Assembly (NCBI RefSeq): GCF_044324875.1
Contig: NZ_CP172185.1
Length of the DNA: 64,000 bases
Origin: Escherichia coli
GTDB lineage: Bacteria > Pseudomonadota > Gammaproteobacteria > Enterobacterales > Enterobacteriaceae
Reading direction: 5' to 3' (one strand)
Shown: positions 1 through 32,489 of the stretch, one piece after another
Layout: every line of letters begins with the position of its first letter
Position numbering within the stretch: position 1 is the first letter of the stretch
The notes under the pieces: generated by a model
The model's database searches: none
What the model was told of the DNA's origin: nothing
Seen by the model: the letters and a program-made list of their open reading frames with translations, nothing else
Made by a program: the position numbers and the translations under genes

Positions 1-1932
1 ACCGATACCGCGCCCCAGAGAAAGCAGAGCACCGCCCGGGGAAGTGAACGCAGCCAGCAGACCACCACGCAGCGTACCGAGTAGTCCGCGCACGCCACGA
101 AGCCGGACCGCAAGCCGTCCCGCACCGGTATCAAGACCGGCAAACAGCACACGCCAGCCGCCAATACCACTCATCGACCCACCGAGTACGCCGCGCAGCT
201 GCGTCAGTAACGGCAGCGCACGACCGAGGCCGGATGTGCCGGTCAGCAGGGAAAAGCCAAGACGCAGTTTTGCCAGCGGCCCCAGCAACACGCCGGTAGC
301 CAGTGACAGCGCCCCCGTGGCCGCAACCGCAGCCAGCAGTGCACCACCGGCAATCAGCAGTTGTTTTGTCAGTTCAGGGTGCGCCTGGGCCAGCGCGGTG
401 ACTTTCGCAATAACCCGGGTGAACGACTGCGTGACAGAACGCAGCGGCCCGTCAACGAGGTCAGCGACACGGATACGCAGCCCTTCCCATGCGCTGTTCA
501 GTGATTTCAGGTCGCCGTCCAGGTTGTCCGCCATGATTCTGGCGTTTTCTTCCAGTTCGCCGTTCGCTGCCTGAATCTCACGCGTCAGGCGCGGCAGGTT
601 TTTTTCGCCTGCCTGTTCAACCAGGCTCATCAGGGAGACATACGCCTCCTGCCCGGCAATATCTGAAAAGAACGAGACTTTTGCCGCGTTACCGTATTTA
701 CGGGTGGCCTGATACAGCTCATACAGGATATCTTCCATCGGGCGCATGTTCCCGTAAGCATCCTGCGTTTCCACGCCCAGCTGTTTCAGCGCCTTTGCTG
801 CCGCTTTAGGCGGGTTCACAAGGCGGGACAGACTGGAGCGCAGCGCCGTACCAGCATCACTGCCACGTATCCCCATCGACCCAAGCAACCCGGTCATGGC
901 TGCGGTCTGTTCAAGAGACAGACCGAGTGAGGCGGCGACCGGTCCCGTATATTTCATCGTCTCACCAAGCCCGCGCAGGTCGGTATTGGTGCGGGTGAAC
1001 GTTGCGGCCAGCGTGTCACCCACGCGGTTCATCTGGTCGGCAGACAACCCGAACTGCGTAAGGATATTTGAGCTGATATCGGCCGTCTGACCGAGGTCCA
1101 TGCCGCTGGCCGTTGCCAGATTCAGCACGCCGGGAAGAGCCGCCTGTATCGCCTGCGGCGTGAACCCCGCCATGGCAAGGAACGCCTGACCGCTGGCAGC
1201 ATCACCTGCGGTAAACTGCGTTTCGGAGCCGAGTTTAAGCGCCTGTTCGCGCAGCGCCTTAAACTGCGGACTGTTTTTGTCAATACGGGTCAGCGCCTGG
1301 ACGCGCGACATCTCCTTACCAAAACTGACCGCCGGTTGCAGGAAACGCCCGGCCGCATAGCCACCTGCCGCTGCCGTGCCGACTGCCGTAAATCCACCCG
1401 CTTTCAGTTTTCCCGCCATCTCCTGAGCGCGGAAATATTGCTGGCGTGCCTGCGTGACGCGTGCCAGAGTCTGCCGTTCACGTTCCAGCTGTTCGTTGTA
1501 TTGCTGTGTTCGCCGTATGGCCTGTTGAATGGTGTTGTCACTGCCGGAAAGCGCAATACCGTGACGCCGCAGCTCACCACCCAGTTCGCGCATTCGCTGA
1601 ACTTCACGCGCACGGACCTCATTGAGACGCTCAAGTTTGAGGCTCAAATCGTTCATCAGCTTTTTCTGTTTGTCAGACAGCACGGTTCCGGCGCGCTGAA
1701 TTTGCTGAAGTGCGCTTAACTGGCGTTGTGCCCGGGCAATGCCGTTTCCGGCCTTGTTTGCAGCCTCGCGGGCGCGATCAAATGAACGGGCGTGGCGTTC
1801 CAGGTTTTTGATCGCACCCTGCGTTCTCTGTATGGAGTCGCCAAGCTGGCCCATCATGCGACGGGCGTTTTCGGTGGGACGGGTCAGCCTGTCAACAGCG
1901 CTGAAGGCGACCCGTATATCAAGCGTTTTCAT
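1..1932 (-). CDS. P2-like phage tail tape measure protein (gpT-like), 3' end runs off the window
   Basis: ATG at 1932-1930 on the minus strand. Hand translation of 1621-1932 gives an uninterrupted, coiled-coil-like sequence (MKTLDIRVAFSAVDRLTRPTENARRMMGQLGDSIQ...). Position after E/E' matches P2 F-operon order. The plus-strand ORFs in the track here are antisense artefacts. Confidence 0.75.
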   Translation of the reverse strand, partial: MKTLDIRVAFSAVDRLTRPTENARRMMGQLGDSIQRTQGAIKNLERHARSFDRAREAANKAGNGIARAQRQLSALQQIQRAGTVLSDKQKKLMNDLSLKLERLNEVRAREVQRMRELGGELRRHGIALSGSDNTIQQAIRRTQQYNEQLERERQTLARVTQARQQYFRAQEMAGKLKAGGFTAVGTAAAGGYAAGRFLQPAVSFGKEMSRVQALTRIDKNSPQFKALREQALKLGSETQFTAGDAASGQAFLAMAGFTPQAIQAALPGVLNLATASGMDLGQTADISSNILTQFGLSADQMNRVGDTLAATFTRTNTDLRGLGETMKYTGPVAASLGLSLEQTAAMTGLLGSMGIRGSDAGTALRSSLSRLVNPPKAAAKALKQLGVETQDAYGNMRPMEDILYELYQATRKYGNAAKVSFFSDIAGQEAYVSLMSLVEQAGEKNLPRLTREIQAANGELEENARIMADNLDGDLKSLNSAWEGLRIRVADLVDGPLRSVTQSFTRVIAKVTALAQAHPELTKQLLIAGGALLAAVAATGALSLATGVLLGPLAKLRLGFSLLTGTSGLGRALPLLTQLRGVLGGSMSGIGGWRVLFAGLDTGAGRLAVRLRGVRGLLGTLRGGLLAAFTSPGGALLSLGRGIG

Positions 1933-2082
1933 GCTCTGCGTTCCCGCTGCGAAGGGCCGCCCGCTCACGCCAGGCGACCACCTCGCCGGGATCCATCAGG
2001 AAGATTTCAGCGGGAGACCAGTTGAAAATAACGGCGATATCCGCCACAAAGTCTTCAATATGCTCAAAGGGCACGACGGTTA

Positions 2083-2445
2083 TCAGCCTGCCGTCGCCGC
2101 CACGCTCTTCCCGCCAGAGTCCTGACCGGCCAAAAAATTAACCGCCACCCCGCACAGCTGAATAAAATCAGCGGACCCCATGCGCTTAAGCATAACCTCG
2201 TCCAGTCGCGGCGAAGTGACGCGCGGGAGTAACTCAAACATCGCGTCCGTTTTCATGTTCAGCACGTCAAGCAGTGACAGCCCGCGCAGTGAACCGGCCT
2301 GCTGTACAGCAGGCGTGATTTCCACATACGTGATTTTTTTGTTACCGAGCACAAGGGGTGTTTTCAGTGTCACGCCGCGCTCACTGGTCACGTCAGCCAC
2401 ATCAGCACCGTCAGTAACAGGGGCAACAACCGGATTTTCTTTCAT
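2083..2445 (-). CDS. P2-like tail assembly chaperone gpE; slippery TTTTTTG near the 3' end implies an E+E' frameshift product
   Basis: 120-aa ORF with GAGG ribosome-binding site before ATG 2445. Lies between the tube gene and the tape-measure gene. Heptamer TTTTTTG (minus-strand sense of 2131-2137) is 16 codons before the stop. Confidence 0.7.
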   Translation of the reverse strand: MKENPVVAPVTDGADVADVTSERGVTLKTPLVLGNKKITYVEITPAVQQAGSLRGLSLLDVLNMKTDAMFELLPRVTSPRLDEVMLKRMGSADFIQLCGVAVNFLAGQDSGGKSVAATAG

Positions 2446-2494
2446 GAATAAAACCTCAAATCAGGGGCGACGCCACGCGCCGCCGTGGAAAACA

Positions 2495-3013
2495 TTAACC
2501 ACCAAGACCAATCGCCGAGCGCACGCGGTCCGGGAAGACGCTTTTGCCGTCCTTGCGTTCGATGTGGTTCAGTAAATCAATCTCCAGCACCGGACGGTCG
2601 TTAATGCTGAGTTTGTAGTAGGTACTTTTGACCGCATAGGTGTGAGACGTGACCTCACCCTGTTTGGCCTCCCCGGTATCAATTTCCGTCACGCGACCGC
2701 GAAGCTCAATCTCGTACAGGTCACTCTGTTCTTCATCGTTGTAGTACTCACCGACAAAGCGCAGCAGCGTACCGTCAATCGTGCCGCCGTACTTGAGGAA
2801 CAGTTCGCGGGTCGGCCCGCCCATGGTGAAACTCGCATCCAGCGCGCCGTCATCCAGGCCAAGGTCGATATTTACTGCACCGGCCATACCACCACCGCGA
2901 TAGGCTTCCGTTTTACGGGTCAGTTTGGGGGGCGTGAAGCCGGTCACCCTGCCAATCTGGTTCACCCCGTCAGTAAACAGCGTGAACACCCTGAGATTTT
3001 TTGGTACGGCCAT
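2495..3013 (-). CDS. P2-like tail tube protein (gpFII-like)
   Basis: 172-aa ORF immediately downstream of the sheath gene; its ATG overlaps the sheath stop (TAATG). Size and position fit gpFII. Confidence 0.8.
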   Translation of the reverse strand: MAVPKNLRVFTLFTDGVNQIGRVTGFTPPKLTRKTEAYRGGGMAGAVNIDLGLDDGALDASFTMGGPTRELFLKYGGTIDGTLLRFVGEYYNDEEQSDLYEIELRGRVTEIDTGEAKQGEVTSHTYAVKSTYYKLSINDRPVLEIDLLNHIERKDGKSVFPDRVRSAIGLGG

Positions 3014-4296
3014 TAAGCACCTCCAAGCGTCGCAAATGCAGGACCAAAGAATTCATCAGTAAACGTCTGGTAAAGTTCCATATCCTCAAGCGGCGGAACG
3101 GGCGTGTACTTGTAGCGGATACGCACGCGTCCCTGACGAAGTTCCGTGGTGCTGTTATCCACCACGTCATACCAGCACTCCGCACCAACGAGACGTCCTG
3201 ACGTAACCAGCGCATCCAGTTTTGCGCGAATTGCGCTTAACACGTCTTTCACATTAGCAGGGGTCAGCGGGGCATCAATCGTTTCAAACTGCGCTTCCGC
3301 AACAGAATCAGCCAGCACCTGAGCGGTTCGCGTGTACACCTCAAAGATATACGCCTTCGTTTCCGGCGTACGGTTGCCCCAGAAGCGGAAACCGTTACGG
3401 CGAATGATGGTGGTGATTTCCTTGTTGTTGAGATTGTTGGCATCGCTGTCTTCGGACTGAAGGGACCAGAACACCCGGCTGGAAATACCCAGCACATTTC
3501 TTACCGGCACGTTGGACAGCGATTTATGCCAGCCCTGTTCGTGGTCAATACGTGCACGTAAACCGCAGGCGTACGCCGCAGCCGGGAAGACCTCATTAGC
3601 GCCGGATTTCGGGTTATAGGCGATGAAGTCAGGCCAGAGCAGCATAAGTTCGCGCTCGTTAAATCTGGCGCGGTAGCTGATTGCATCAGCGGGCTTCTTG
3701 CAGTTGTGACAGCCCGCGTAGACAAATGCGCGAAGTTTTTCTGCAATTACACACAGGGATTTTGTGACAGCTTCAGTATCCAGTCCGGGAGCTGCGATGA
3801 TGCGCGGACGGTAACCGATGGCATCATCCTGTTCAGCTATCAGAAGTGCATACATACCGGTATAATTACCGTCGCCATCCGTGCCACCAATGACATACTG
3901 GTCCTGCGTTTTGTGTGGGTATACAGGATGTGCATCTTCAGACTCATCAATACCAAAAAATGCCCTGTCTTCAGGATCCAGATGACCGAATGATGTAACT
4001 CCTGTATCCGGGGCGCCCTGAGAACTGGCATCAGGAACGCGCACCACAATCACCTTCGTGCTCACCTGGTCGGCGACAGCCTTAAGCGATTTGTAAAGCG
4101 TCCCCTTTGTGCCGGCCTTACCCAGCACATCACTGACGCGGGTCAGCAGTGTGGGTTTGTTCAGCGGGAACAGAGTTTCATCCGCGTCATCTGCCGTAGC
4201 CACAATACCAATAACACTGGAATCCACATCATTAATGGCGGTGGCAAGGCCGGTACTTTCCCTTACGCGCGCACCATGAAAGCGTGTTTCACTCAT
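3013..4296 (-). CDS. P2-like contractile tail sheath protein (gpFI-like)
   Basis: Track ORF 3013..4443; the likely true start is ATG 4296 (MSETRFHGARV...), preceded by AGGGTG. 427 aa with conserved sheath motifs (GFRFWGNRT, YTPVPPLE). Confidence 0.8.
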   Translation of the reverse strand: MSETRFHGARVRESTGLATAINDVDSSVIGIVATADDADETLFPLNKPTLLTRVSDVLGKAGTKGTLYKSLKAVADQVSTKVIVVRVPDASSQGAPDTGVTSFGHLDPEDRAFFGIDESEDAHPVYPHKTQDQYVIGGTDGDGNYTGMYALLIAEQDDAIGYRPRIIAAPGLDTEAVTKSLCVIAEKLRAFVYAGCHNCKKPADAISYRARFNERELMLLWPDFIAYNPKSGANEVFPAAAYACGLRARIDHEQGWHKSLSNVPVRNVLGISSRVFWSLQSEDSDANNLNNKEITTIIRRNGFRFWGNRTPETKAYIFEVYTRTAQVLADSVAEAQFETIDAPLTPANVKDVLSAIRAKLDALVTSGRLVGAECWYDVVDNSTTELRQGRVRIRYKYTPVPPLEDMELYQTFTDEFFGPAFATLGGA

Positions 4297-4369
4297 ATGT
4301 TTCACCCTTGTCTGGCTGGTTGATTTTGCGTAATCATTACCCACACACGCGGTAATCTCACCCCTTTGA

Positions 4370-4393
4370 TGTTGTCTCCTGACAGCGACAACA
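4370..4393. promoter_or_regulatory. Ogr/Delta-type late-promoter activator site (TGTTGTC-N10-GACAACA, containing TGT-N12-ACA)
   Basis: Perfect 7-bp inverted repeat with the P2 late-promoter TGT-N12-ACA geometry. Centred about 85 bp upstream of the FI ATG and about 77 bp upstream of the D ATG. Confidence 0.55.
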
Positions 4394-4457
4394 AAACAGC
4401 CATTCAACGCCGCTACGGTGCATGAAACCATTACAGAACGCACCAGGAGAGAACACC

Positions 4458-5549
4458 ATGAAAGAGCTGTCAGTTACCGTTCCGTCACCGGATATCGACA
4501 TCACCATCAACAACAACACACTGGCAAACCTCACAGAGCGACTCATGACGCTGACCCTGACGGATAACCGGGCCTTTGAGGCAGACCGCGTCACCCTCAC
4601 CCTTGACGATACGGACGGGCAGTTACAGTTGCCACCACGTGGCGCACGCCTGAGAGTGATGATTGGCTGGCGCGGGGAGGCGCTGGTTAACAAGGGTGTC
4701 TACATCGTTGATGAAGTGACGTGGGAAGGCCCGCCGGACAAACTGACCATCACCGCCAGCAGCGCCGATTTTCGCGAAGAGTTCAACGTGAAGCGTGAAG
4801 TCTCCTGGCACGACGTGACGGTAAAACAGGTTGTGTCAGCCATCGCGCACCGCTACGGCCTGAAAGCACAGATAAGCGATATCCTCATGGATATCGAAAT
4901 TGACCACGCAGACCAGACCGAAGAGAGTGATATATCCTTCCTGACCCGCATGGCTGAAATGCTGGGTGCGATTGCCACCGTAAAAAACGGCAGCCTGTTA
5001 TTCATTCTGCCGGGTGGCGGAACCGGGCCGGACGGAAAAGCCCTGCCTTCGTTCGCCATTACCCGCAGCAGCGGCGACAGTCACCGCTTTCGCATTGCTG
5101 ACCGTGATGCGTATACGGGGGTCCGGGCGCACTGGCTCGATCTGAAGTTCGGGCAAAAGAAAAAAGTGAACGTGAAGCGACGCAGGGAAGCCGGGAAACA
5201 GAAACAGGAGAAGAGCAGCAGCCGGGAAGGTGATTACATGGAAGGCGCGGAAGGTAACGTCTACGTTCTGCGCAGGACTTACCAGAATGAAGAAACCGCA
5301 CGACGTGCAGCAGCTGCAAAGTGGCAGGAACTACAGCGGGGCGCGGCATCATTCTCCATCACGCTGGCGCGCGGTCGTGCCGACCTGTACCCTGAAATGC
5401 ACGGCAGGGTAACAGGTTTTAAAAGCGAGGTGGACAATCAGGACTGGATTATTGCCAGGGTGGAGCACAGCATAGATGAAAGCGGCTTCACCACACAACT
5501 GGAGCTGGAAGCGAAAATCCCCGAATGGATAGCAGATTCAGGCGGATAA
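4458..5549 (+). CDS. P2-like tail protein D (gpD-like)
   Basis: Track ORF 4422..5549; the ATG at 4458 has an AGGAGA ribosome-binding site. Translation is gpD-like along its length (conserved SWHD, FLTR, DRxAYTGV, AKWxxLQRG, GFTTxLELE). Confidence 0.8.
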   Translation: MKELSVTVPSPDIDITINNNTLANLTERLMTLTLTDNRAFEADRVTLTLDDTDGQLQLPPRGARLRVMIGWRGEALVNKGVYIVDEVTWEGPPDKLTITASSADFREEFNVKREVSWHDVTVKQVVSAIAHRYGLKAQISDILMDIEIDHADQTEESDISFLTRMAEMLGAIATVKNGSLLFILPGGGTGPDGKALPSFAITRSSGDSHRFRIADRDAYTGVRAHWLDLKFGQKKKVNVKRRREAGKQKQEKSSSREGDYMEGAEGNVYVLRRTYQNEETARRAAAAKWQELQRGAASFSITLARGRADLYPEMHGRVTGFKSEVDNQDWIIARVEHSIDESGFTTQLELEAKIPEWIADSGG

Positions 5550-5592
5550 AATTAAAATGAGCCATCTCCACTCAGCCAGATAAGGAGAAGCC

Positions 5593-5844
5593 ATGTTCCG
5601 TTGTCCCCTGTGCGGTGCATCCGCACGTATCCGCACCAGTCGCAATGAAAATGATTCAGGCACAGTTCGCCTGAAGTACTACCAGTGCAATAACCTCGAA
5701 TGCGGGATCGGCTTTACCACACTGGAGGGTTTTAACAAATTCACATCAAAACGCGCCCCGTCGCCGCAGGGTACAGAGCGGATACCGTGGGAAGATTTTC
5801 CGGGATCTCACAGGGGGAATGCTCAGATGAATCTTGATATTTAA
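5593..5844 (+). CDS. ogr: Ogr-family zinc-finger late-gene transcription activator
   Basis: 83 aa. Begins MFRCPLCGASARIRTSRNE with CPLC...C(N)NLEC zinc-finger spacing. AAGGAGA ribosome-binding site. Confidence 0.85.
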   Translation: MFRCPLCGASARIRTSRNENDSGTVRLKYYQCNNLECGIGFTTLEGFNKFTSKRAPSPQGTERIPWEDFPGSHRGNAQMNLDI

Positions 5845-5990
5845 GAACAATAATCAGGTTGAGAGGACATCATAAGGCAAGTAGATTAACGGCAGATACT
5901 TTCCCGCAACCACGGGCAAGTATTTAATTATCCATGATGAAATATGACCTAAATTGTTTTTTGCCCGCCGGAAAGCGGGCATTTTTTTAT
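5845..5990 (+). repeat. Repeat unit A: sequence downstream of ogr ending in an intrinsic terminator (candidate phage right arm plus att core)
   Basis: Shares the core ggttgag...agtagattaac...ttatccatgat...gcccgcc-N-gcgggc-T7 with units B and C. Confidence 0.6.
5963..5988 (+). terminator. Intrinsic terminator, copy 1 (gcccgccggaaagcgggc + T7)
   Basis: GC stem-loop followed by a T-run on the plus strand. Confidence 0.75.
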
Positions 5991-6202
5991 TCTTTTGTGG
6001 TTATGGGGTCATCAGGAACCACGTGCAGATTATATTTTTGTTTTTTTGGCGTTCCTCCGGCAGCAACGAGTTCATCAATAAGACACTGACACGCCTGAAC
6101 ATCCCGGGCATGTCTTAGTTTCACCTTTATTGATTTAACCTTATCCTCACCGGAGGAGAAATGCAGTTCAATCTCAATATCGTTTCTTCGGAACAATCTC
6201 AT
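5987..6202 (-). CDS. Hypothetical small protein (71 aa) in an AT-rich islet
   Basis: ATG at 6202 preceded by a GGGGGG ribosome-binding site. AT-rich promoter-like sequence upstream, with TATAAT-like hexamers. No family recognised by eye. Confidence 0.45.
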   Translation of the reverse strand: MRLFRRNDIEIELHFSSGEDKVKSIKVKLRHARDVQACQCLIDELVAAGGTPKKQKYNLHVVPDDPITTKE

Positions 6203-6429
6203 ACGCCCCCCTGAATATATCAGAAATGCTAGTATCGAAAAATGAGAAAACAGTTAGACAGGAGAAACATATTAACACAAATCATTTATACCTATAGATG
6301 AAATTATAATTTCATTCATGAATATGATAGATAACTATATTGTGAACAAAATGAAAAATGGCTAAATTAAAAATGGGCATGGAGGAATGCCTCGTAATCA
6401 GTAATACATGATCCATACTTCCTTGTTTT

Positions 6430-6455
6430 GCCCGCCGGAAAGCGGGCATTTTTTT
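6430..6455 (+). terminator. Intrinsic terminator, copy 2 (hairpin identical to copy 1)
   Basis: gcccgccggaaagcgggc + T7. Together with copy 1 it forms a near-identical ~30-bp direct repeat flanking the AT-rich islet. Confidence 0.75.
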
Positions 6456-6657
6456 GGCGGTTACCATCGCCTCACCTTCCTGGTTCACACAAAGCAACCC
6501 TGATTTTCCATGAAAACTTCAGGGTTGAGCCAAAAGCACAAAGACAGTAGATTAACCAAGGGTACCCGCCACCTGCCAACAGGAACGGTATCCAGTACGT
6601 ATTAATGACTGACAATTCACATTGCTGTTTTGCCCGCCAGAAGGTGGGCATTTTTTT
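6456..6657 (+). repeat. Repeat unit B: paralogue of units A and C, ending in terminator copy 3
   Basis: Aligns by eye with unit C over about 200 bp. Contains a degenerate ogr 3'-end-like segment (ttcaca...gattttcc). Confidence 0.6.
6632..6657 (+). terminator. Intrinsic terminator, copy 3 (gcccgccagaaggtgggc + T7)
   Basis: GC stem-loop followed by a T-run. Confidence 0.7.
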
Positions 6658-6861
6658 GGCAGTTATCATGGACGCACCTTCATGACACATATTAAGCAGA
6701 CCTGATTTTTCCATGAAAAATTCATGGTTGAGACAAAAGCACAAAAACAGTAGATTAACCACGGGTGCCTGCCACCTGACAACAGGAAGGGGTGTCCATT
6801 ATCCATGATATACAAACGAAAAGTCTTGTCTTTTGCCCGCCGTTGCGCGGGCTTTTTTTTT
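6658..6861 (+). repeat. Repeat unit C: paralogue of units A and B, ending in terminator copy 4
   Basis: Same architecture as unit B. Confidence 0.6.
6835..6861 (+). terminator. Intrinsic terminator, copy 4 (gcccgccgttgcgcgggc + T9)
   Basis: GC stem-loop followed by a T-run. Confidence 0.7.
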
Positions 6862-6890
6862 GCCACCCTCACCAGTGAGGGTACCATCAT

Positions 6891-7112
6891 TCAGAGGCGC
6901 GTAAGCCACCCGGCGTTAACATCCTGCCCGTCAACCCTGACCGCAGAGTCTGAACGGCAGGCACCGGAAGCAGTACCAAAAACACCTCTGACAAGTTCCG
7001 CCACCTTCCCGATATCATCAGGCGCCACATTCCTCACCTCGACAGTGATCCGTGGCGTACCATCATCGTTAACAAGCGTGGCTTTAAGGCTGGTACGACG
7101 GGCAAATAACAT
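6891..7112 (-). CDS. Hypothetical small protein (73 aa)
   Basis: ATG at 7112 with an AGGGAGG ribosome-binding site about 9 nt upstream. GC-rich, between repeat unit C and the copA promoter. No family recognised. Confidence 0.45.
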   Translation of the reverse strand: MLFARRTSLKATLVNDDGTPRITVEVRNVAPDDIGKVAELVRGVFGTASGACRSDSAVRVDGQDVNAGWLTRL

Positions 7113-7172
7113 CAACACCCCCTCCCTTCGGTTCGTTGCACTGGCAGCACGATACCACCAGGAAAAAGAAAA

Positions 7173-7203
7173 GCCCACAACGTCAGGATTGCGGGCTTTT
7201 TTT
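7173..7203 (+). terminator. Intrinsic terminator, copy 5 (gcccacaacgtcaggattgcgggc + T7), related to copies 1-4
   Basis: Stem-loop followed by a T-run, directly upstream of the copA promoter. Confidence 0.65.
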
Positions 7204-7269
7204 CTTCAAAAATGGACACTACGTGGACACTGATTAAATAATCCTTTCTTAATCAGACTGTTAAAATGC

Positions 7270-7300
7270 TTGACCTTCCCCTTGCTGGAAGGTTTAACCT
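7270..7300 (+). promoter_or_regulatory. copA promoter with CueR (MerR-type) operator
   Basis: -35 TTGACC followed by the dyad CCTTCC-N7-GGAAGG within a long spacer, the known PcopA/CueR architecture. Confidence 0.8.
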
Positions 7301-7340
7301 TTATCACAGCCAGTCAAAACTGTCTTAAAAGGAGTGTTTT

Positions 7341-9845
7341 ATGTCACAAACTATCGACCTGACCCTGGACGGCCTGTCCTGCGGTCACTGCGTTAAACGC
7401 GTGAAAGAAAGTCTCGAACAGCGCCCGGATGTTGAGCAGGCGGATGTGTCTGTCACTGAAGCGCACGTTACCGGGACTGCCAGTGCAGAACAGCTGATCG
7501 AAACCATCAAACAAGCGGGTTATGACGCATCTGTAAGCCACCCAAAGGCTAAACCGCTGGCGGAGTCATCAATCCCGTCGGAAGCACTGACAGCGGTTTC
7601 TGAGGCGCTTCCGGCAGCGACCGCCGATGACGATGACAGCCAGCAGTTGCTGCTGAGCGGCATGAGCTGCGCCAGCTGTGTCACCCGCGTACAAAATGCG
7701 TTGCAAAGCGTACCGGGCGTCACTCAGGCACGGGTAAACCTGGCGGAGCGTACTGCGCTGGTGATGGGCAGTGCCTCCCCACAAGATTTAGTGCAGGCGG
7801 TGGAAAAAGCGGGCTACGGCGCGGAAGCGATTGAAGATGACGCTAAACGCCGCGAGCGCCAGCAGGAAACCGCCGTCGCTACGATGAAGCGCTTCCGCTG
7901 GCAGGCAATTGTCGCACTGGCGGTGGGTATCCCGGTGATGGTCTGGGGGATGATCGGCGATAACATGATGGTCACCGCTGACAACCGCAGCTTGTGGTTA
8001 GTTATCGGCCTGATAACCCTGGCAGTGATGGTTTTCGCCGGCGGCCATTTTTACCGTAGTGCATGGAAAAGCCTGCTGAACGGTGCAGCGACGATGGATA
8101 CGCTGGTGGCGCTGGGTACTGGCGTGGCGTGGCTCTATTCGATGAGCGTCAACCTGTGGCCGCAGTGGTTCCCGATGGAAGCGCGACATCTTTATTACGA
8201 AGCCAGCGCGATGATTATCGGTCTGATCAATCTCGGTCATATGCTGGAAGCGCGCGCACGTCAGCGTTCTTCAAAGGCGCTGGAGAAATTACTCGATTTA
8301 ACCCCACCGACGGCGCGCCTGGTCACCGACGAAGGTGAAAAAAGCGTGCCGCTGGCGGAAGTGCAGCCAGGTATGTTGCTGCGCCTGACGACCGGCGATC
8401 GCGTGCCGGTAGATGGCGAGATTACCCAGGGCGAAGCATGGCTGGATGAAGCGATGCTGACGGGCGAACCAATCCCGCAGCAAAAAGGCGAAGGCGATAG
8501 CGTCCATGCCGGGACAGTGGTACAGGACGGCAGTGTGCTGTTTCGTGCCAGTGCGGTCGGCAGCCATACTACGCTGTCACGAATCATTCGCATGGTGCGC
8601 CAGGCCCAGAGCAGCAAGCCTGAAATCGGCCAACTGGCGGATAAAATCTCCGCTGTGTTTGTGCCGGTGGTGGTAGTCATTGCGCTGATCAGTGCGGCAA
8701 TCTGGTATTTCTTTGGTCCGGCACCGCAGATTGTCTATACCCTGGTGATTGCCACCACGGTGCTGATTATCGCCTGTCCGTGTGCGCTGGGACTGGCGAC
8801 GCCGATGTCGATTATTTCGGGCGTCGGGCGGGCGGCTGAGTTTGGTGTGCTGGTGCGGGACGCCGACGCGCTGCAACGCGCCAGTACGCTCGACACCGTG
8901 GTGTTCGATAAAACCGGGACGCTGACCGAAGGGAAGCCGCAGGTTGTCGCAGTAAAAACATTTGCTGATGTTGATGAAGCGCAAGCATTGCGTCTGGCGG
9001 CGGCGCTGGAGCAAGGTTCCAGCCACCCGCTGGCACGGGCGATCCTCGATAAAGCAGGTGATATGCAGCTACCGCAGGTCAACGGTTTCCGCACATTGCG
9101 CGGGCTGGGTGTGAGCGGTGAAGCTGAAGGTCATGCGGTATTGCTGGGCAATCAGGCGCTGTTAAATGACCAGCAAGTTGATACTAAAGCGATTGAGGCA
9201 GATATTTCAGCTCAGGCATCGCAAGGTGCAACGCCTGTGCTGCTGGCGGTTGACGGGAAAGCGGTAGCCCTGCTGGCTGTACGCGATCCGTTGCGTAGTG
9301 ATAGCGTGGCGGCGCTGCAACGCCTGCATAAAGCGGGATATCGTCTGGTGATGTTGACCGGGGATAACCCAACCACCGCCAATGCGATCGCCAAAGAAGC
9401 AGGGATTGATGAGGTGATAGCCGGCGTGCTGCCGGACGGTAAAGCCGAAGCGATCAAACGTCTTCAAAGTGAAGGACGTCAGGTGGCAATGGTGGGCGAC
9501 GGCATTAACGATGCGCCAGCGCTGGCTCAGGCGGATGTCGGTATTGCGATGGGTGGCGGCAGTGATGTTGCCATTGAAACCGCGGCGATTACCCTGATGC
9601 GCCATAGCCTGATGGGTGTTGCAGATGCGCTCGCGATTTCCCGCGCAACGCTGCGCAATATGAAGCAGAACCTGCTCGGTGCGTTTATCTACAACAGCAT
9701 TGGTATTCCGGTCGCCGCCGGTATTTTGTGGCCGTTCACTGGAACACTGCTTAACCCGGTGGTTGCCGGAGCGGCAATGGCGCTCTCGTCGATTACCGTA
9801 GTGAGTAACGCCAACCGGTTACTGCGGTTTAAACCGAAAGAGTGA
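7341..9845 (+). CDS. copA: Cu(I)-translocating P-type ATPase
   Basis: 834 aa. Two N-terminal CxxC metal-binding domains, CPC motif, DKTGT phosphorylation site. Confidence 0.97.
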
Positions 9846-24226: not shown

Positions 24227-26158
24227 TCAAATGGGGCGGATACTTTCTTCATCCAGCTCCGCATCGAAGAATCGACGCAGGGTCTGAATATTATTATCCG
24301 CAATAATGGACTCGCGCGCCTGCGCAAGTTTTTCTTCGTATATCGCCTGACGCCATTCCAGCGGCGTACGCACCGCGGGATTATCATCTTCAACGATAGT
24401 CAGTTCAACCGTTGAACCTTTTAACGTGCTCAACGCTTCAGCCAGTTTTTGCTGTGCGCCGCGGTTGTTCAAATGCCGCTGAGAGGAGCGCAAATGCAGA
24501 CATACTGCGTTGTCGCTCTCCTCTTTCCAGGCATTTAACGCCACCTGTTCGACCAGTTTTGGTAGCGAAAGTTGACTCACCTGAGCCGCCCACGGGTCGC
24601 GCTCAATGGCTTCTGCCGCCAGCTTCGCCGCCAGTTCCGGCGTTTTTTCATGTTCCAGCGCTTTTTTTAGCGCCTTCGGCGTGGCGACCACTTCTTTTTG
24701 CTGCATCACTGGAGTGGTAGCCTTCCAGCGATACGCTTCTTTTTTGGCTGGCGCTTTTTCCAGCGCCGATGGCACCGGACGCGCCTGAACGCGATCGGTG
24801 ACCGAAGCCAGTCTTTCCAGCGCAGCGTTATTCACCGGCCGCGCGCGGGTAGCGGCTGCCGGTTCACTCTTTTTTGCTTTGGTTGCTCCCTGCACGCGCT
24901 GCAACTGCTGGCGCGCCGCCAGCACCTGGCTGGTGGTTTCCGGGAGCGGTACAGTCGGTGCCTGCTGCGGCGCTGATTGCGGTTGTGGCGGCACCTGGGT
25001 TGGCGTCATTACTGCCGTTGGCGCAACGAGCGCAAAGGACTGGCGTGGCACTTCTGGCTCAGGCAGAGGCATACGCGGATGGAACGCCAGCGCGCGCAGC
25101 AGCGTCATCTCAACACCCATACGGCGGTCTGGCGCATACGGTAATTCTTTGCGACCAATCAACAGCGTCTGATAGTAAAGCTGAATATCCGTCGGCGGTA
25201 TGGTGCGCGCCAGTTCACGCATCCGCAGCTCAATGGCGGCCATGTCGTTGCCAAGAGCAGCAGGCGAAAGTTGTACCATCGCAATACGATGCAACAGACC
25301 GAGCATTTCCACCAGCAACGCTTCCCACTCGATACCACGGGCAGCAGCTTCATTAATTAGCGCCATTACGCGCTCGCCGTTGGCCTCGACCATCGCTTCA
25401 ACCAGCGATAACGCCTGATCGTCGTCAAGCGTACCCAGCATCGCACTGACCGCCTGGGTTGAAACCTGGCCGTCACCGCTGGCAATCGCCTGGTCGGTCA
25501 GACTTAAGGCATCTCGCAGGCTGCCTTCAGCGGCGCGTGCCAACAATTGCAGCGCCCGCGGCTCGTGAGCGATATGTTCTTCGTTGAGGATGTGCTCAAG
25601 CTGATGGCGAATTTGCTCGACATCCAGCGCCTTGAGATGAAATTGCAGACAGCGTGACAAAATCGTCACCGGCAATTTCTGCGGATCGGTCGTCGCCAGC
25701 AAAAACTTAACGTGCTCTGGCGGCTCTTCAAGGGTTTTTAACAGTGCGTTAAAGCTGTGACGCGACAGCATATGCACTTCGTCGATGAGATAAACTTTGA
25801 AACGACCACGCGCCGGAGCGTACTGGACGTTATCCAGCAGGTCGCGAGTGTCTTCAACTTTAGTGCGCGAGGCGGCGTCGATTTCAATCAGATCGACAAA
25901 GCGCCCCTGCTCGATTTCACGACAATTATCGCACACGCCGCACGGCGTCGCGGTAATGCCGGTTTCGCAGTTTAGCCCCTTCGCCAGCAGTCGGGCGATA
26001 GAGGTTTTTCCGACGCCACGGGTACCGGAAAAAAGATAAGCATGATGAATACGCCCTAACGACAAGCCGTTCGCCAGTGCGGTCAGCACATGTTCCTGGC
26101 CGACGACGTCAGCAAAGGTTTGTGGGCGCCATTTTCGGGCTAAGACCTGATAACTCAT
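24227..26158 (-). CDS. dnaX: DNA polymerase III tau subunit; gamma arises by programmed -1 frameshift
   Basis: 643 aa. A AAA AAG slippery heptamer (plus-strand cttttttg, 24869-24876) at codons encoding AKKSE. Confidence 0.97.
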   Translation of the reverse strand: MSYQVLARKWRPQTFADVVGQEHVLTALANGLSLGRIHHAYLFSGTRGVGKTSIARLLAKGLNCETGITATPCGVCDNCREIEQGRFVDLIEIDAASRTKVEDTRDLLDNVQYAPARGRFKVYLIDEVHMLSRHSFNALLKTLEEPPEHVKFLLATTDPQKLPVTILSRCLQFHLKALDVEQIRHQLEHILNEEHIAHEPRALQLLARAAEGSLRDALSLTDQAIASGDGQVSTQAVSAMLGTLDDDQALSLVEAMVEANGERVMALINEAAARGIEWEALLVEMLGLLHRIAMVQLSPAALGNDMAAIELRMRELARTIPPTDIQLYYQTLLIGRKELPYAPDRRMGVEMTLLRALAFHPRMPLPEPEVPRQSFALVAPTAVMTPTQVPPQPQSAPQQAPTVPLPETTSQVLAARQQLQRVQGATKAKKSEPAAATRARPVNNAALERLASVTDRVQARPVPSALEKAPAKKEAYRWKATTPVMQQKEVVATPKALKKALEHEKTPELAAKLAAEAIERDPWAAQVSQLSLPKLVEQVALNAWKEESDNAVCLHLRSSQRHLNNRGAQQKLAEALSTLKGSTVELTIVEDDNPAVRTPLEWRQAIYEEKLAQARESIIADNNIQTLRRFFDAELDEESIRPI

Positions 26159-26286
26159 TGGCAGGCTCTGAAACGCTGGAAGGTGGATTCACGAAGGGGT
26201 AATGCTAACACAGCCCCGTCAGAACGGCGAGGCTGAATGCACATCTTGTGCTGTCCGTAGCGTGGGCAGCACAAGACTGGCGATAA

Positions 26287-26838
26287 TTAATGGCCCGGGA
26301 ACGGGACAAGGCTGTAGCTGGTAATGCCCTGTTTTTCGAGACGCTGTTCGCCGCCGAGATCGAACAGGTTGATAATGAACGCAGCGTCAGCCACTTCACC
26401 ACCCAGACGACGGATCAGTTTAACGGTCGCTTCGATAGTGCCGCCGGTTGCCAGCAGATCGTCCACCACCAGAACTTTGTCGCCCGGTTTGATGGCATCA
26501 ACGTGGATTTCCAGCTGATCGGTGCCGTATTCCAGATCGTAAGTTTCACTGATGGTCTCACGCGGCAGTTTGCCCGGTTTACGGACCGGTACAAAGCCAA
26601 CGCCCAGACCCAGAGCTACCGGAGCGCCAAACAAGAAGCCACGCGCTTCGGTGCCGACAACTTTGGTAATGCCCGCATTTTTGTAACGCTCAACCAGCAA
26701 GTCGATGCTGAGAGCGTAAGCTTTCGGGTCTTCCAGTAAGCTGGTGACATCACGGAAAAGAATGCCGGGTTTTGGGTAGTCCTGAATGCTTTTGATGCTA
26801 TTTTTGAGATACTCAAGCTGCTGTGCAGTCGCGGTCAT
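26287..26838 (-). CDS. apt: Adenine phosphoribosyltransferase
   Basis: 183 aa from [12 protein letters not shown]. Confidence 0.96.
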
Positions 26839-26990
26839 AAGTGTATGCCTGCTTGTTACGGTGGTACTCACGGCGCGTTTTAAACGTATCAAAAGTAACA
26901 GTTGTTTAACCTTTGACCGCCTGCGCCTGTGCTCGAAAACGCCAGAATGTACTGGCTGTACGCAATAATTGCAACTGCGATTGTTGTGCT

Positions 26991-27368
26991 TCAGTGCTTT
27001 TCTTGCTTTTCATCAATCACCGGAATTCGCCACATATAAAAAAGCAAACAGGCGAGAATTACCAGCAACATGATGCGCACCCATGGCATCTGGACGAACC
27101 ACAGAGAAATTGCAAACGTGAGCAAAATAAGCAAAATCGCCCGCGGTTTGACGCCGCGCGGCATCGCATGATGTTTCTGCCAGAAACGTAGATAGCTGCC
27201 AAACCATGAGCGGTACAGCAACCAGGCGTGAAAGCGCGGGGAAGAACGGGCAAAGCACCAGGCCGCCAGCAGGATAAACGGCGTCGTCGGTAATACCGGT
27301 AATACCACGCCCAGCGTACCCAGCACTACCGCCAGCCAGCCAATGATGATTAAAATGATTCGTTGCAT
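26991..27368 (-). CDS. ybaN: DUF454 inner-membrane protein
   Basis: 125-aa ORF matching YbaN. Confidence 0.9.
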
Positions 27369-27437
27369 ATTGAGTGTTGTCAGCTTACAGAGTGGCTACC
27401 TTAGCATAACAATTATCATTTTCATTGAGGTCTTATC

Positions 27438-27965
27438 GTGAAAACCGCCCTGCTGCTGGAAAAACTGGAAGGACAGCTCGCCACGCTGCGCCAGCGTTGT
27501 GCCCCGGTAGCGCAATTTGCCACGCTAAGTGCGCGTTTTGACAGGCACCTTTTTCAAACCCGTGCGACAACACTACAGGCTTGTCTCGATGAGACGGGCG
27601 ATAATCTGGCTGCGCTTCGTCATGCCGTTGAGCAACAGCAACTGCCGCAAGTCGCCTGGCTGGCAGAACATCTGGCGGCGCAACTGGAAGCCATCGCGCG
27701 TGAAGCCACAGCCTGGTCGCTACGCGAGTGGGACAGCGCGCCACCAAAAATTGCCCGCTGGCAGCGTAAACGTATTCAGCATCAGGATTTTGAGCGGCGG
27801 CTACGTGAGATGGTAACCGAACGTCGAGCCCGCCTGGCGCGGGTGACCGATCTCGTGGAACAGCAAACGCTGCATCGTGAAGTGGAAGCCTATGAAGCGC
27901 GCCTGGCACGCTGCCGCCATGCGCTGGAAAAAATCGAAAACAGGTTAGCGCGTTTAACCCGCTAG
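27438..27965 (+). CDS. priC: Primosomal replication protein N''
   Basis: 175-aa ORF matching PriC. Confidence 0.93.
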
Positions 27966-27978
27966 CAATGGAGAGAGT

Positions 27979-28140
27979 ATGTCACTGGAAAATGCCCCTG
28001 ACGATGTCAAACTGGCTGTCGATTTGATTGTGCTGCTGGAAGAAAATCAGATCCCAGCGCGCACCGTGCTGCGCGCGCTGGATATTGTAAAACGCGATTA
28101 TGAAAAGAAATTAACGCGCGATGATGAGGCGGAAAAGTGA
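27979..28140 (+). CDS. ybaM: Small protein YbaM (DUF2496), 53 aa
   Basis: Below the track's size cutoff; atgtcactggaaaatgcccct... encodes [53 protein letters not shown]. Confidence 0.8.
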
Positions 28141-31841: not shown

Positions 31842-32489
31842 TTATTCGGTAATGGCAGGGTTACGAAGCGTGGGACATAGGAGATACATCTCCAGTAAGA
31901 TGGCGACGTAATCGCGGGCTTCTTTTTTAAGATCAAAAGATTGCGGGGCAAAGAGCCAGTTTTCCATCAGGCCGGAAATATAGCCGCGCATAATAATTGC
32001 TGCCCGACGCGTCATTAAATCCGCAGGCAACATTTTCGCTTCAATACAATGTTTTAACGTTTGTTCTATACGGTCATAACTTTCCAGACAGAGATTACGT
32101 TGTGCCTGTTGCACAACAGCCATTTCTCCGACAAATTCGCATTTGTGGAATATAATCTCCATCAATAATCGACGCCGTTCTTCTGTCACCGTGGATTCAA
32201 GAACATGAATTAATATCTCTCTTAATACTGAGAGTGGATCGCCAGGGAATTTTGCCTGATACTCAAGCTCTAGTTCACCAATATTGGATTCTGACAGTTC
32301 CCAGATCTCACTGAACAAATCCGACTTGTCTTTAAAATGCCAGTAGATTGCACCGCGCGTAACGCCAGCTGCTTTTGCAATCTCGCCCAGCGAGGTGGAT
32401 GATACCCCCTGCTGTGAGAAAAGACGTAGAGCCACATCGAGGATGTGTTGGCGCGTTTCTTGCGCTTCTTGTTTGGTTTTTCGTGCCAT
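31842..32489 (-). CDS. acrR: TetR-family repressor of acrAB
   Basis: 215-aa ORF, divergent from acrA. Confidence 0.96.

What the first reader, a model, noticed from the sequence alone, without database searches (positions are those of the whole stretch)
2083..2445. Conserved E/E' -1 frameshift signal retained in the remnant
The minus-strand sense carries TTTTTTG (plus-strand caaaaaa at 2131-2137) 16 codons before the E stop, the slippery heptamer used by P2-like phages to make the E+E' tail-assembly chaperone. The roughly 150 bp between the E stop and the T start would encode the E' extension. Keeping this signal, and intact FI, FII, T and D frames, suggests the tail module is under selection rather than decaying.
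Basis: partly seen in the sequence, partly recalled or inferred. Interest (0 to 1): 0.3.

Follow-up and report, generated by a model that had tools for sequence, protein, structure and literature searches.

The report
P2-type tail-chaperone frameshift site in prophage
This is the ordinary, well-known ribosomal frameshift site that P2-like phages use to make two versions of a tail-assembly helper protein, and it probably sits in a complete P88-like prophage cut by the window edge, not in a decaying remnant.

Summary
On the minus strand, TTTTTTG (2137..2131) lies in the phase T_TTT_TTG inside the 120-codon E gene (2445..2083), with 15 sense codons between TTG and the stop. The -1 frame is closed by a TAA directly before the heptamer. 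It then stays open for 72 codons to a TGA at 1921..1919, which overlaps the T start codon (1932..1930) by 14 nt. The -1 product matches Pfam Phage_P2_GpE (E 3.5e-12). The predicted 175-aa fusion aligns collinearly with P2 E+E' across the slip site (E 1e-27). In 81 of 83 related loci E' is in the -1 frame. Between the heptamer and the E stop, the -1 frame is the constrained one (dN/dS 0.15-0.49, against 1.3-4.0 for the zero frame).

The "remnant" reading is not supported. The window starts inside T. In the closest E. coli genome (99.4% identical) the same DNA is the right end of a complete ~35-kb prophage between glsA and copA. The closest phages are P88-like (Xuanwuvirus), and P88 has the same layout with D divergent from FI.

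This is a new member of a known kind. Interest is low. One minor new point: relatives use A_AAT_TTT or C_CCT_TTC at the same spot.

The parts
2131..2137 (-). Slippery heptamer T_TTT_TTG. It spans the last base of the Asn103 codon, Phe104 and Leu105 of E.
   Evidence: P2 has the same heptamer in the same phase (GG[T TTT TTG]). It lies at the aligned F-L column.
2138..2140 (-). TAA stop in the -1 frame directly 5' of the heptamer. E' can only be entered at or after the heptamer.
   Evidence: Specific to this lineage: P88 has AAA here.
2083..2445 (-). Gene E, the zero-frame product (120 aa), a tail assembly chaperone.
   Evidence: phrog_103, E 1.8e-31. BLASTP against P2 gpE: 36% identity, E 1e-14.
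1919..2131 (-). E' reading frame (-1 relative to E): 70 codons plus a TGA stop. The predicted fusion E+E' is 175 aa.
   Evidence: Pfam PF06528 Phage_P2_GpE, E 3.5e-12. phrog_1756, E 8.7e-34. dN/dS 0.15-0.22 in this frame only.
2083..2130 (-). Dual-coding overlap zone (15 E codons and the start of E'). It contains the -1 frame motif W-x-x-E-R-x-G-D-G.
   Evidence: -1 frame dN/dS 0.15-0.49, against 1.3-4.0 for the zero frame. Motif conserved across relatives.
1..1932 (-). Gene T (tape measure), first 644 codons. It is cut by the window edge, not by a mutation.
   Evidence: Pfam PhageMin_Tail, E 1.2e-58. Full ORFs of 1103-1180 aa in five close relatives.
2495..3013 (-). Gene FII (tail tube), 172 aa.
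   Evidence: Pfam Phage_tube, E 1.7e-44.
3013..4296 (-). Gene FI (tail sheath), 427 aa.
   Evidence: Pfam Phage_sheath_1 and related domains. Start as annotated by PGAP in LH50-c.
4373..4390 (.). TGT-N12-ACA dyad between the divergent FI and D genes. Candidate Ogr-type activator site of the late promoter (inferred).
   Evidence: Its centre is 85 nt upstream of the FI ATG, against 83 nt for the annotated P2 PF activator site.
4458..5549 (+). Gene D (late control / baseplate hub), 363 aa.
   Evidence: Pfam Phage_GPD, E 3.6e-17. Start from PGAP.
5593..5844 (+). ogr-like late activator, 83 aa.
   Evidence: Pfam Ogr_Delta, E 4.9e-14.
7269..7288 (+). Right end of the prophage: a 20-bp att core, CTTGACCTTCCCCTTGCTGG.
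   Evidence: Homology to prophage-free E. coli begins at 7269. The same 20-mer lies beside int in LH50-c. Sequence.

Best explanation
This is the programmed -1 ribosomal frameshift site of the tail-assembly chaperone gene pair E/E' of a P2-like, P88/Xuanwuvirus-type prophage.

Proposed mechanism:
- Most ribosomes translating E read through AAT TTT TTG and stop 15 codons later, giving the 120-aa protein E.
- A minority slip back one base on U_UUU_UUG. The P-site and A-site tRNAs re-pair on UUU UUU.
- These ribosomes continue in the -1 frame for 70 more codons, giving a 175-aa protein E+E'. Its stop overlaps the start of the tape-measure gene T.
- By analogy with P2 gpE/gpE+E' and lambda gpG/gpGT, the shared E part binds the tape measure. 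The E' part recruits the tube protein. A fixed low ratio of the two is needed to build the tail.

Shown here: the anatomy, the homology and the frame-specific constraint. Inferred from P2 and lambda: that slippage actually occurs, its rate, and the chaperone role.

The gene pair probably sits in an intact prophage whose left part lies outside the window.
For: - The heptamer is in the X_XXY_YYZ phase, and the -1 frame is open for 72 codons.
- The pair sits between the tube gene FII and the tape-measure gene T.
- E' matches PF06528 and phrog_1756.
- The fusion aligns collinearly with the annotated P2 E+E' across the slip site (E 1e-27; P2 annotation).
- P2 has the same heptamer in the same phase at the aligned column.
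- 81 of 83 related loci keep E' in the -1 frame, with an in-phase slippery heptamer at the same or the adjacent codon.
- Right after the heptamer the -1 frame is under purifying selection and the zero frame is not.
- A -1 frame motif is conserved upstream of any possible separate start codon.
- Literature: P2 shifts at TTTTTTG to give E (91 aa) and E+E' (142 aa), with no downstream hairpin (PMC3091744, citing Christie 2002 and Xu 2004). Lambda G/GT mechanism: PMC5009743.
- A complete prophage is present in the nearest relative.
Against: - There is no direct evidence of slippage in this phage.
- No significant downstream RNA structure was found (z 0.14 and -0.98). This is also true of P2.
- In E. 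coli reporter assays the U_UUG tetramer is a weak motif, and U_UUU_UUG is not among the most efficient heptamers listed for E. coli (PMC4066793). The shift rate may be low.
- Pfam and NCBIfam give no family for the E part alone.
- RefSeq annotates E' as a separate 51-aa CDS starting at a GTG.
- The comparators used for dN/dS are related to one another and the overlap zone is only 15 codons.
Confidence: 0.92

Rival explanations
1. E' is a separate small gene (51 aa) translated from its own GTG start at 2074, as RefSeq and PGAP annotate it. On this reading the heptamer is just the codons for Phe-Leu.
For: PGAP calls a 156-nt CDS 'GpE family phage tail protein' (WP_001115715.1) in all five related genomes. 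The P88 record also has two separate CDSs. The ORF listing finds the GTG ORF 1919..2074.
Against: - The -1 frame is conserved and under purifying selection for the 19 codons upstream of that GTG.
- The GTG is replaced by GCG in the Klebsiella-type relatives, where the -1 frame reads V-A-F rather than V-V-P-F.
- Only a weak Shine-Dalgarno-like AGG lies upstream.
- The homologous P2 product is annotated as a joined -1 frameshift fusion and described as such in PMC3091744.
- AAT-TTT-TTG is an unlikely codon choice for Asn-Phe-Leu, yet T_TTT_TTG is kept in lineages as far apart as P2, L064 and P88.
Confidence: 0.04
2. The signal is a relic in a defective prophage or a domesticated tail module (tailocin-like). 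Frames are kept by host-level selection, or simply have not yet decayed.
For: Only FI, FII, E, T, D and ogr are visible in the window. The source genome left of position 1 cannot be seen.
Against: - The nearest relative (99.4% identical) carries the whole prophage, including int, a replication endonuclease, portal, terminase, capsid, lysis, baseplate and fibre genes.
- Four other close copies have an intact T ORF, U and fibre genes on their left flank.
- The TUM9803 copy, at another chromosomal site, is 100% identical to the window over FII-E-E'-T. That fits recent mobility of a live phage.
- Phage P88 has the same gene order.
Confidence: 0.1
3. Access to the -1 frame comes from RNA polymerase slippage on the T6 run (one extra U in the mRNA), not from ribosomal slippage.
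For: A homopolymer run of six T is present. Transcriptional slippage is a known alternative route to frame change (PMC5009743).
Against: From my own knowledge: six bases is short for efficient transcriptional slippage in E. coli. Relatives reach the same E' frame with A_AAT_TTT followed by ATG (a run of four T) or with C_CCT_TTC (runs of three). These are classic tandem-tRNA slippage heptamers but poor polymerase slippage sites.
Confidence: 0.03

Closest known systems
Bacteriophage P2 gpE / gpE+E' programmed -1 frameshift (Christie et al. 2002, as cited in PMC3091744; annotated in NC_001895)
   Same: - The heptamer T_TTT_TTG is in the same phase, at the aligned Phe-Leu of a V-x-F-L motif.
- Same position between FII and T.
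- The E' stop overlaps the T start.
- No downstream hairpin.
- E is 36% identical, and the fusion aligns collinearly at E 1e-27.
   Different: - E is 120 aa here, against 91 aa in P2, because of an N-terminal extension.
- There are 15 codons between the slip site and the E stop, against 6 in P2. E' has about 10 extra residues (G-R-S-G-L-W-R-E-E-R) right after the shift.
- The fusion is 175 aa, against 142 aa.
- A TAA closes the -1 frame directly before the heptamer.
- The operon is divergent from D and ogr instead of co-linear with them.
Escherichia phage P88 and other Xuanwuvirus (Peduoviridae) E/E' pairs
   Same: These are the closest phage relatives (about 68-70% amino-acid identity over the fusion). 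P88 has the same layout, with FI-FII-E-E'-T-U divergent from D. It has the same 15-codon overlap and the same AAT TTT TTG codons.
   Different: P88-type phages have GTA AAT TTT TTG, so a second heptamer, A_AAT_TTT, overlaps the first. The window has GTT AAT, which removes that option. T is about 1173 aa in the window's close relatives, against 935 aa in P88. None of these records annotates the frameshift.
Lambda gpG / gpGT and the conserved tail-chaperone frameshift of long-tailed phages (Xu, Hendrix and Duda 2004; PMC5009743)
   Same: The logic is the same: two proteins made from one start by a low-level -1 shift near the end of the gene that lies between the major tail protein gene and the tape-measure gene.
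   Different: I detected no sequence similarity to lambda G or T. Lambda has a non-contractile tail and a different heptamer. The functional analogy is inferred, not tested.

Membership tests
P2-type E/E+E' tail-chaperone -1 frameshift | Gene pair located between the tail tube gene and the tape-measure gene. | tested here: met
   FII (Phage_tube) is at 2495-3013, E at 2083-2445, and T (PhageMin_Tail) runs from 1932 downwards.
P2-type E/E+E' tail-chaperone -1 frameshift | The second ORF is in the -1 frame and overlaps the 3' end of the first. | tested here: met
   The -1 frame is open for 72 codons from 2137 to 1919 and overlaps the last 17 E codons. The same holds in 81 of 83 related loci.
P2-type E/E+E' tail-chaperone -1 frameshift | An in-phase X_XXY_YYZ slippery heptamer inside the overlap. 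| tested here: met
   T_TTT_TTG at 2137..2131, phase checked. The site is identical in P2. From reading the zone, it is the only such heptamer there.
P2-type E/E+E' tail-chaperone -1 frameshift | The -1 extension is homologous to P2 E' (Pfam Phage_P2_GpE). | tested here: met
   PF06528: E 3.5e-12, 46.1 bits against a cutoff of 23.
P2-type E/E+E' tail-chaperone -1 frameshift | The zero-frame part is homologous to P2 gpE. | tested here: met
   BLASTP: 36% identity, E 1e-14. phrog_103: E 1.8e-31. Pfam and NCBIfam gave no family for this part.
P2-type E/E+E' tail-chaperone -1 frameshift | Evolutionary constraint on the -1 frame starts at the slip site, not at a later start codon. | tested here: met
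   In the overlap zone, -1 frame dN/dS is 0.15-0.49 and zero-frame dN/dS is 1.3-4.0. The W-x-x-E-R-x-G-D-G motif is conserved. The sample is small and the comparators are related.
P2-type E/E+E' tail-chaperone -1 frameshift | Two proteins are actually made from one start, and both are needed for tail assembly. | not testable with these tools
   This needs protein detection and genetics in an induced lysogen.
P88-like (Xuanwuvirus) temperate phage, intact prophage | A full complement of P2-like genes from int to ogr, flanked by att repeats. | tested here: inconclusive
   Met in the nearest relative, LH50-c, with a 20-bp repeat at both ends. The window's own genome left of position 1 cannot be seen.
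P88-like (Xuanwuvirus) temperate phage, intact prophage | Genome-wide nucleotide identity to P88 at genus level. | not tested
   Only protein identities were obtained for the tail genes: 62-78% against P88.
Defective prophage remnant / tailocin | Tail genes kept while head, replication and integration genes are absent. | tested here: not met
   In the nearest relative all of these genes are present next to the tail genes. The four other close copies show T, U and tail fibre genes on their left flank. Tested in relatives, not in the window's own genome.

The most novel reading that the evidence does not exclude
The slip site is conserved in position but not in sequence. At the same or the adjacent codon, relatives use one of the following:
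- T_TTT_TTG alone: the window, P2 and L064.
- A_AAT_TTT overlapping T_TTT_TTG: the P88 type.
- A_AAT_TTT alone, after TTG changed to ATG: about 25 IMG/VR loci.
- C_CCT_TTC: the Klebsiella type.

In E. coli reporter assays the H_HH.U_UU.Y heptamers are among the most efficient, the U_UUG tetramer is weak, and U_UU.U_UU.G is not among the best E. coli heptamers (PMC4066793).

The most novel reading not excluded is that these swaps tune the E:E+E' ratio between lineages. On that reading, the window's lineage gave up the stronger motif through a GTA to GTT change and now runs on the weaker P2-type motif alone.
Probability: 0.4. Interest if true: 0.3.

Novelty: new member of a known kind. Interest (0 to 1): 0.12.

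Why it matters
Mainly for annotation. RefSeq/PGAP and the P88 record split this recoded gene into 'phage tail protein' plus a 51-aa 'GpE family' CDS, so the 175-aa E+E' product is missing from protein databases. PGAP also flags the intact tape-measure gene as a pseudogene. Correcting the 'remnant' reading matters for any inference about prophage domestication. This looks like a whole, probably inducible P2-like prophage inserted at the -35 element of the copA promoter. The frameshift itself adds nothing new to a mechanism established for P2 and lambda.

Tried and rejected
- **Downstream stimulatory RNA structure.** I folded 98 nt starting at the heptamer and the 56 nt directly after it. The energies are no better than shuffles (z 0.14 and -0.98). 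This matches reports for P2 and Burkholderia phages.
- **Upstream Shine-Dalgarno-like stimulator.** A G-rich stretch (GGGGTGG) lies upstream in the window but is absent in P88. Rejected as not conserved.
- **Rfam scan of 1-7400.** No relevant family, only a sub-threshold Thr_leader hit.
- **Significance from the pattern alone.** Rejected: heptamer counts, shuffles and a window-wide scan show that similar bare configurations arise by chance.
- **First dN/dS attempt for E'.** It used the wrong frame ('E'' rows are invalid). Redone correctly.
- **First motif-based locus parsing.** It was too strict and missed many loci. Replaced by tblastn anchoring.
- **Christie et al. 2002 (PMC135442).** Not held in the library. 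P2 facts are taken from the NC_001895 annotation and from PMC3091744.
- **Inversion or rearrangement as the cause of D being divergent from FI.** Rejected, because P88 has the same layout.

Full report
**1. What is in the sequence**

Read on the minus strand, the left end of the window carries a P2-like tail gene block:
- FI, tail sheath: 4296..3013, 427 aa.
- FII, tail tube: 3013..2495, Pfam Phage_tube E 1.7e-44.
- A 120-codon ORF, E: 2445..2083.
- The tape-measure gene T: ATG at 1932..1930, Pfam PhageMin_Tail E 1.2e-58. It is open for all 644 codons down to window position 1.

On the plus strand, divergent from FI, lie D (4458..5549, Phage_GPD) and an ogr/delta zinc-finger gene (5593..5844).

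- In the E frame the codons are GTT AAT TTT TTG GCC, so the heptamer is in the phase T_TTT_TTG required for tandem tRNA slippage.
- Fifteen sense codons follow TTG before the TGA at 2085..2083.
- The -1 frame has a TAA at 2140..2138, directly before the heptamer. It then stays open for 72 codons to a TGA at 1921..1919.
- The E stop and the T ATG are exactly 150 nt apart.
- E' does not stop before the T ATG. It overlaps it by 14 nt (ATGAAAACGCTTGA). P2 has a similar 8-nt overlap.
- The predicted products are E (120 aa) and E+E' (175 aa).

**2. Is it more than chance?**

The pattern alone is not.
- TTTTTTG occurs 35 times in the window (17.8 expected).
- 8% of mononucleotide shuffles of the region keep the -1 frame open.
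- I scanned every stop-to-stop open frame of at least 80 codons. This found 31 in-phase X_XXY_YYZ heptamers within 30 codons of a stop. Six of them have a -1 frame open for at least 50 codons.
- I checked the longest of these, at 32336. It is an artefact of the real acrR gene lying in the other frame.

The case rests on homology and conservation.
- The -1 translation hits Pfam PF06528 Phage_P2_GpE (E 3.5e-12, 46 bits against a cutoff of 23) and phrog_1756 (E 8.7e-34).
- The zero-frame part hits phrog_103 (E 1.8e-31). It aligns to P2 gpE at 36% identity (E 1e-14).
- The conceptual fusion aligns collinearly with the annotated P2 E+E' protein across the shift point (E 1e-27).
- In P2 the annotated frameshift site is GG[T TTT TTG] TCG, with the same heptamer in the same phase. 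The Phe-Leu residues it encodes fall in invariant columns of the three-way alignment.

**3. Comparative evidence**

A tblastn search of the fusion against 50,697 phage records found 401 records. In all 40 rows listed, the match came in two pieces, as expected for two reading frames. The best hits are P88, PhiR44_2, Chuche, 500465-2 and other Xuanwuvirus phages, at about 68-70% amino-acid identity.

A scan of IMG/VR returned 80 loci. I anchored E and E' by tblastn in these loci plus P2, P88 and the window.
- E' is in the -1 frame in 81 of 83.
- The two exceptions (L006, L008) have indels inside the body of E, not at the slip site.

The aligned slip region shows four states at the same place:
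- GTT AAT TTT TTG: the window type, identical in the Ch1 and TUM9803 copies.
- GTA AAT TTT TTG: the P88 type, in which A_AAT_TTT and T_TTT_TTG overlap.
- GTA AAT TTT ATG: only A_AAT_TTT is left.
- GTC CCT TTC TTG: the Klebsiella type, C_CCT_TTC.

One other locus, L064, has GTG CCT TTT TTG.

So a slippery heptamer in the right phase is always present, but its identity changes.

I compared the window with six diverged relatives.
- In the 15-codon zone between the heptamer and the E stop, -1 frame dN/dS is 0.15-0.49 (amino-acid identity 0.57-0.79). Zero-frame dN/dS is 1.3-4.0 (identity 0.27-0.53).
- In the E'-only zone, -1 frame dN/dS is 0.15-0.22. The other two frames contain stops.

A motif, W-x-x-E-R-x-G-D-G, is conserved in the -1 frame inside the overlap. 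It lies upstream of the GTG (2074) that PGAP uses as the start of a separate 51-aa 'GpE family' CDS. That GTG is not conserved in the Klebsiella-type relatives. These results place the start of E' translation at the heptamer, not at an internal start codon. The caveats are that the comparators are related to one another and the overlap zone is short.

**4. Mechanism**

The best-supported explanation is the P2 mechanism. It was described experimentally for P2 (Christie et al. 2002, as summarised in PMC3091744) and for the analogous lambda G/GT pair (PMC5009743). A minority of ribosomes slip -1 on U_UUU_UUG and make E+E', while the majority make E. The two share the part that binds the tape measure, and the extension engages the tube protein.

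I found no stimulatory structure downstream (z 0.14 and -0.98). None is reported for P2 or for the Burkholderia P2-like phages either. In E. coli reporter assays the U_UUG tetramer is weak, and U_UU.U_UU.G is not among the most efficient E. coli heptamers. H_HH.U_UU.Y, which includes A_AAU_UUU and C_CCU_UUC, is (PMC4066793). A low shift rate is therefore likely here, which fits a chaperone needed in small amounts. Slippage itself, its rate and the chaperone function are inferred, not shown.

**5. The 'remnant' interpretation**

Megablast of 1-7340 against 5,426 complete E. coli genomes found 28 genomes that hold most of the region.

The best match is strain LH50-c (99.4% identical). There the DNA to the left of the window start continues with the rest of T (an intact 1173-aa ORF), U, tail fibre and fibre assembly genes, baseplate, lysis, head, terminase and portal genes, a replication endonuclease, a repressor-like gene and an integrase next to glsA. 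This is a complete ~35-kb prophage between glsA and copA.

Four further close copies show the following:
- Each has an intact T ORF (1103-1180 aa), U, the tail fibre assembly gene and part of a tail fibre gene on its left flank.
- Two sit at other chromosomal sites, ytfP/yidD and serS.
- The TUM9803 copy is 100% identical to the window over FII, E, E' and the first 644 codons of T.

PGAP's 'pseudogene, missing C-terminus' flag on T is an annotation artefact, because the ORF is uninterrupted.

The layout with D and ogr divergent from FI-FII-E-E'-T-U is also the layout of phage P88, so it is not a rearrangement. A TGT-N12-ACA dyad lies at 4373..4390, with its centre 85 nt upstream of the FI ATG. 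In P2 the annotated activator site of the F promoter is centred 83 nt upstream. Together with an intact ogr, this suggests the late promoter is also in place, though that is an inference.

Pairwise dN/dS among close copies is below 1 wherever there are enough differences to measure it. Examples are FII 0.04-0.16, T 0.07-0.18 and D 0.10-0.31. That is what a circulating phage would show.

The 'remnant' is therefore most likely an effect of the window edge. No special selection on an isolated tail module needs to be invoked. The source genome itself could not be inspected left of position 1.

**6. Comparison with what is known, and novelty**

The element meets every testable defining feature of the P2-type E/E+E' frameshift: position, -1 overlap, an in-phase heptamer, homology of both parts, and constraint beginning at the slip site.

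It differs from P2 in five ways:
- A longer E (120 aa against 91 aa).
- A longer overlap (15 codons against 6).
- About 10 extra residues at the start of E'.
- A -1 frame stop directly before the heptamer.
- The divergent operon layout.

It differs from P88 in lacking the overlapping A_AAT_TTT option, because it has GTT instead of GTA.

It is a new member of a known kind. The mechanism is textbook, and the specific site is simply not annotated as recoding in RefSeq or in the P88 record. Interest is low. The only mildly new point is the turnover of heptamers at a fixed position among Xuanwuvirus-like phages.

**7. Side observations**

Homology to prophage-free E. coli starts exactly at 7269. 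The 20-mer CTTGACCTTCCCCTTGCTGG (7269..7288) is repeated beside int at the other end of the LH50-c prophage. From my own knowledge of the copA promoter, this 20-mer contains its -35 hexamer and part of the CueR operator. If so, the phage integrates at the promoter and phage DNA abuts the -35 element. Only 5 of 5,426 genomes hold at least 80% of the 6600-7500 junction query.

Between ogr and this core lies an array of four ~100-nt units. Each ends in a strong terminator hairpin, and two are preceded by a scanned promoter-like site. None has an Rfam match.

Noticed in passing
window 7269-7288 (and L085 5671-5690): The prophage att core is a 20-mer, CTTGACCTTCCCCTTGCTGG. From my own knowledge of the copA promoter, it covers the -35 hexamer and part of the CueR operator, so phage DNA directly abuts the -35 element of PcopA. 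Homology to prophage-free E. coli starts exactly at 7269. Only 5 of 5,426 complete E. coli genomes hold at least 80% of the junction query (6600-7500). I did not examine any effect on copper regulation.
   Followed up: partly
window 5845-7268: Between ogr and the att core there are four ~100-nt units. Each ends in a strong plus-strand terminator hairpin (TGCCCGCC-loop-GGCGGGCA followed by T7-T9) at 5962, 6429, 6631 and 6835. The last three are spaced 202-203 bp apart. The scan found a promoter-like TTGAGA-17-TAGATT before two of them (5859 and 6728), and a diverged repeat copy of that region lies at 6523-6556. The unit bodies have diverged, with a 5' stem-loop that shows some compensatory changes. 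There is no Rfam match. More copies are present in strain DG341. This may be an array of phage-borne small RNA genes.
   Followed up: partly
L005-L084 (IMG/VR relatives), aligned to window 2128-2141: The slip site changes sequence but not position: T_TTT_TTG, the overlapping pair A_AAT_TTT / T_TTT_TTG, A_AAT_TTT alone (after TTG changed to ATG), or C_CCT_TTC. Two P88-background loci (L030, L038) differ from their neighbours by the single TTG to ATG change.
   Followed up: yes
L001 18410-21931 and the equivalent in L086-L089 (continuation of window 1-1932): PGAP flags the tape-measure gene as an incomplete pseudogene in all five related genomes. The ORF is nevertheless uninterrupted (1103-1180 aa) and is followed 12 nt later by U. 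T is much longer than in P88 (935 aa), and its length varies between copies.
   Followed up: partly
L006 and L008 (IMG/VR contigs): Two of the 83 related loci have indels inside the body of E: a 1-nt frame change in L006 and a 5-nt deletion in L008. The slip region is left intact. This is either real decay or a sequencing error on short contigs.
   Followed up: partly
window about 26000-28000, minus strand: By position relative to the LH50-c annotation, dnaX and its annotated 'DnaX frameshifting element' should lie here, about 24 kb from the phage site. That would be a second, cellular -1 frameshift signal in the same window. I did not inspect it in the window.
   Followed up: no
window 4373-4390: An extended dyad, TGTTGTC-N10-GACAACA (TGT-N12-ACA), sits midway between the divergent FI and D genes, 85 nt from the FI ATG and 77 nt from the D ATG. 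A single Ogr-type activator site may serve both late promoters.
   Followed up: partly
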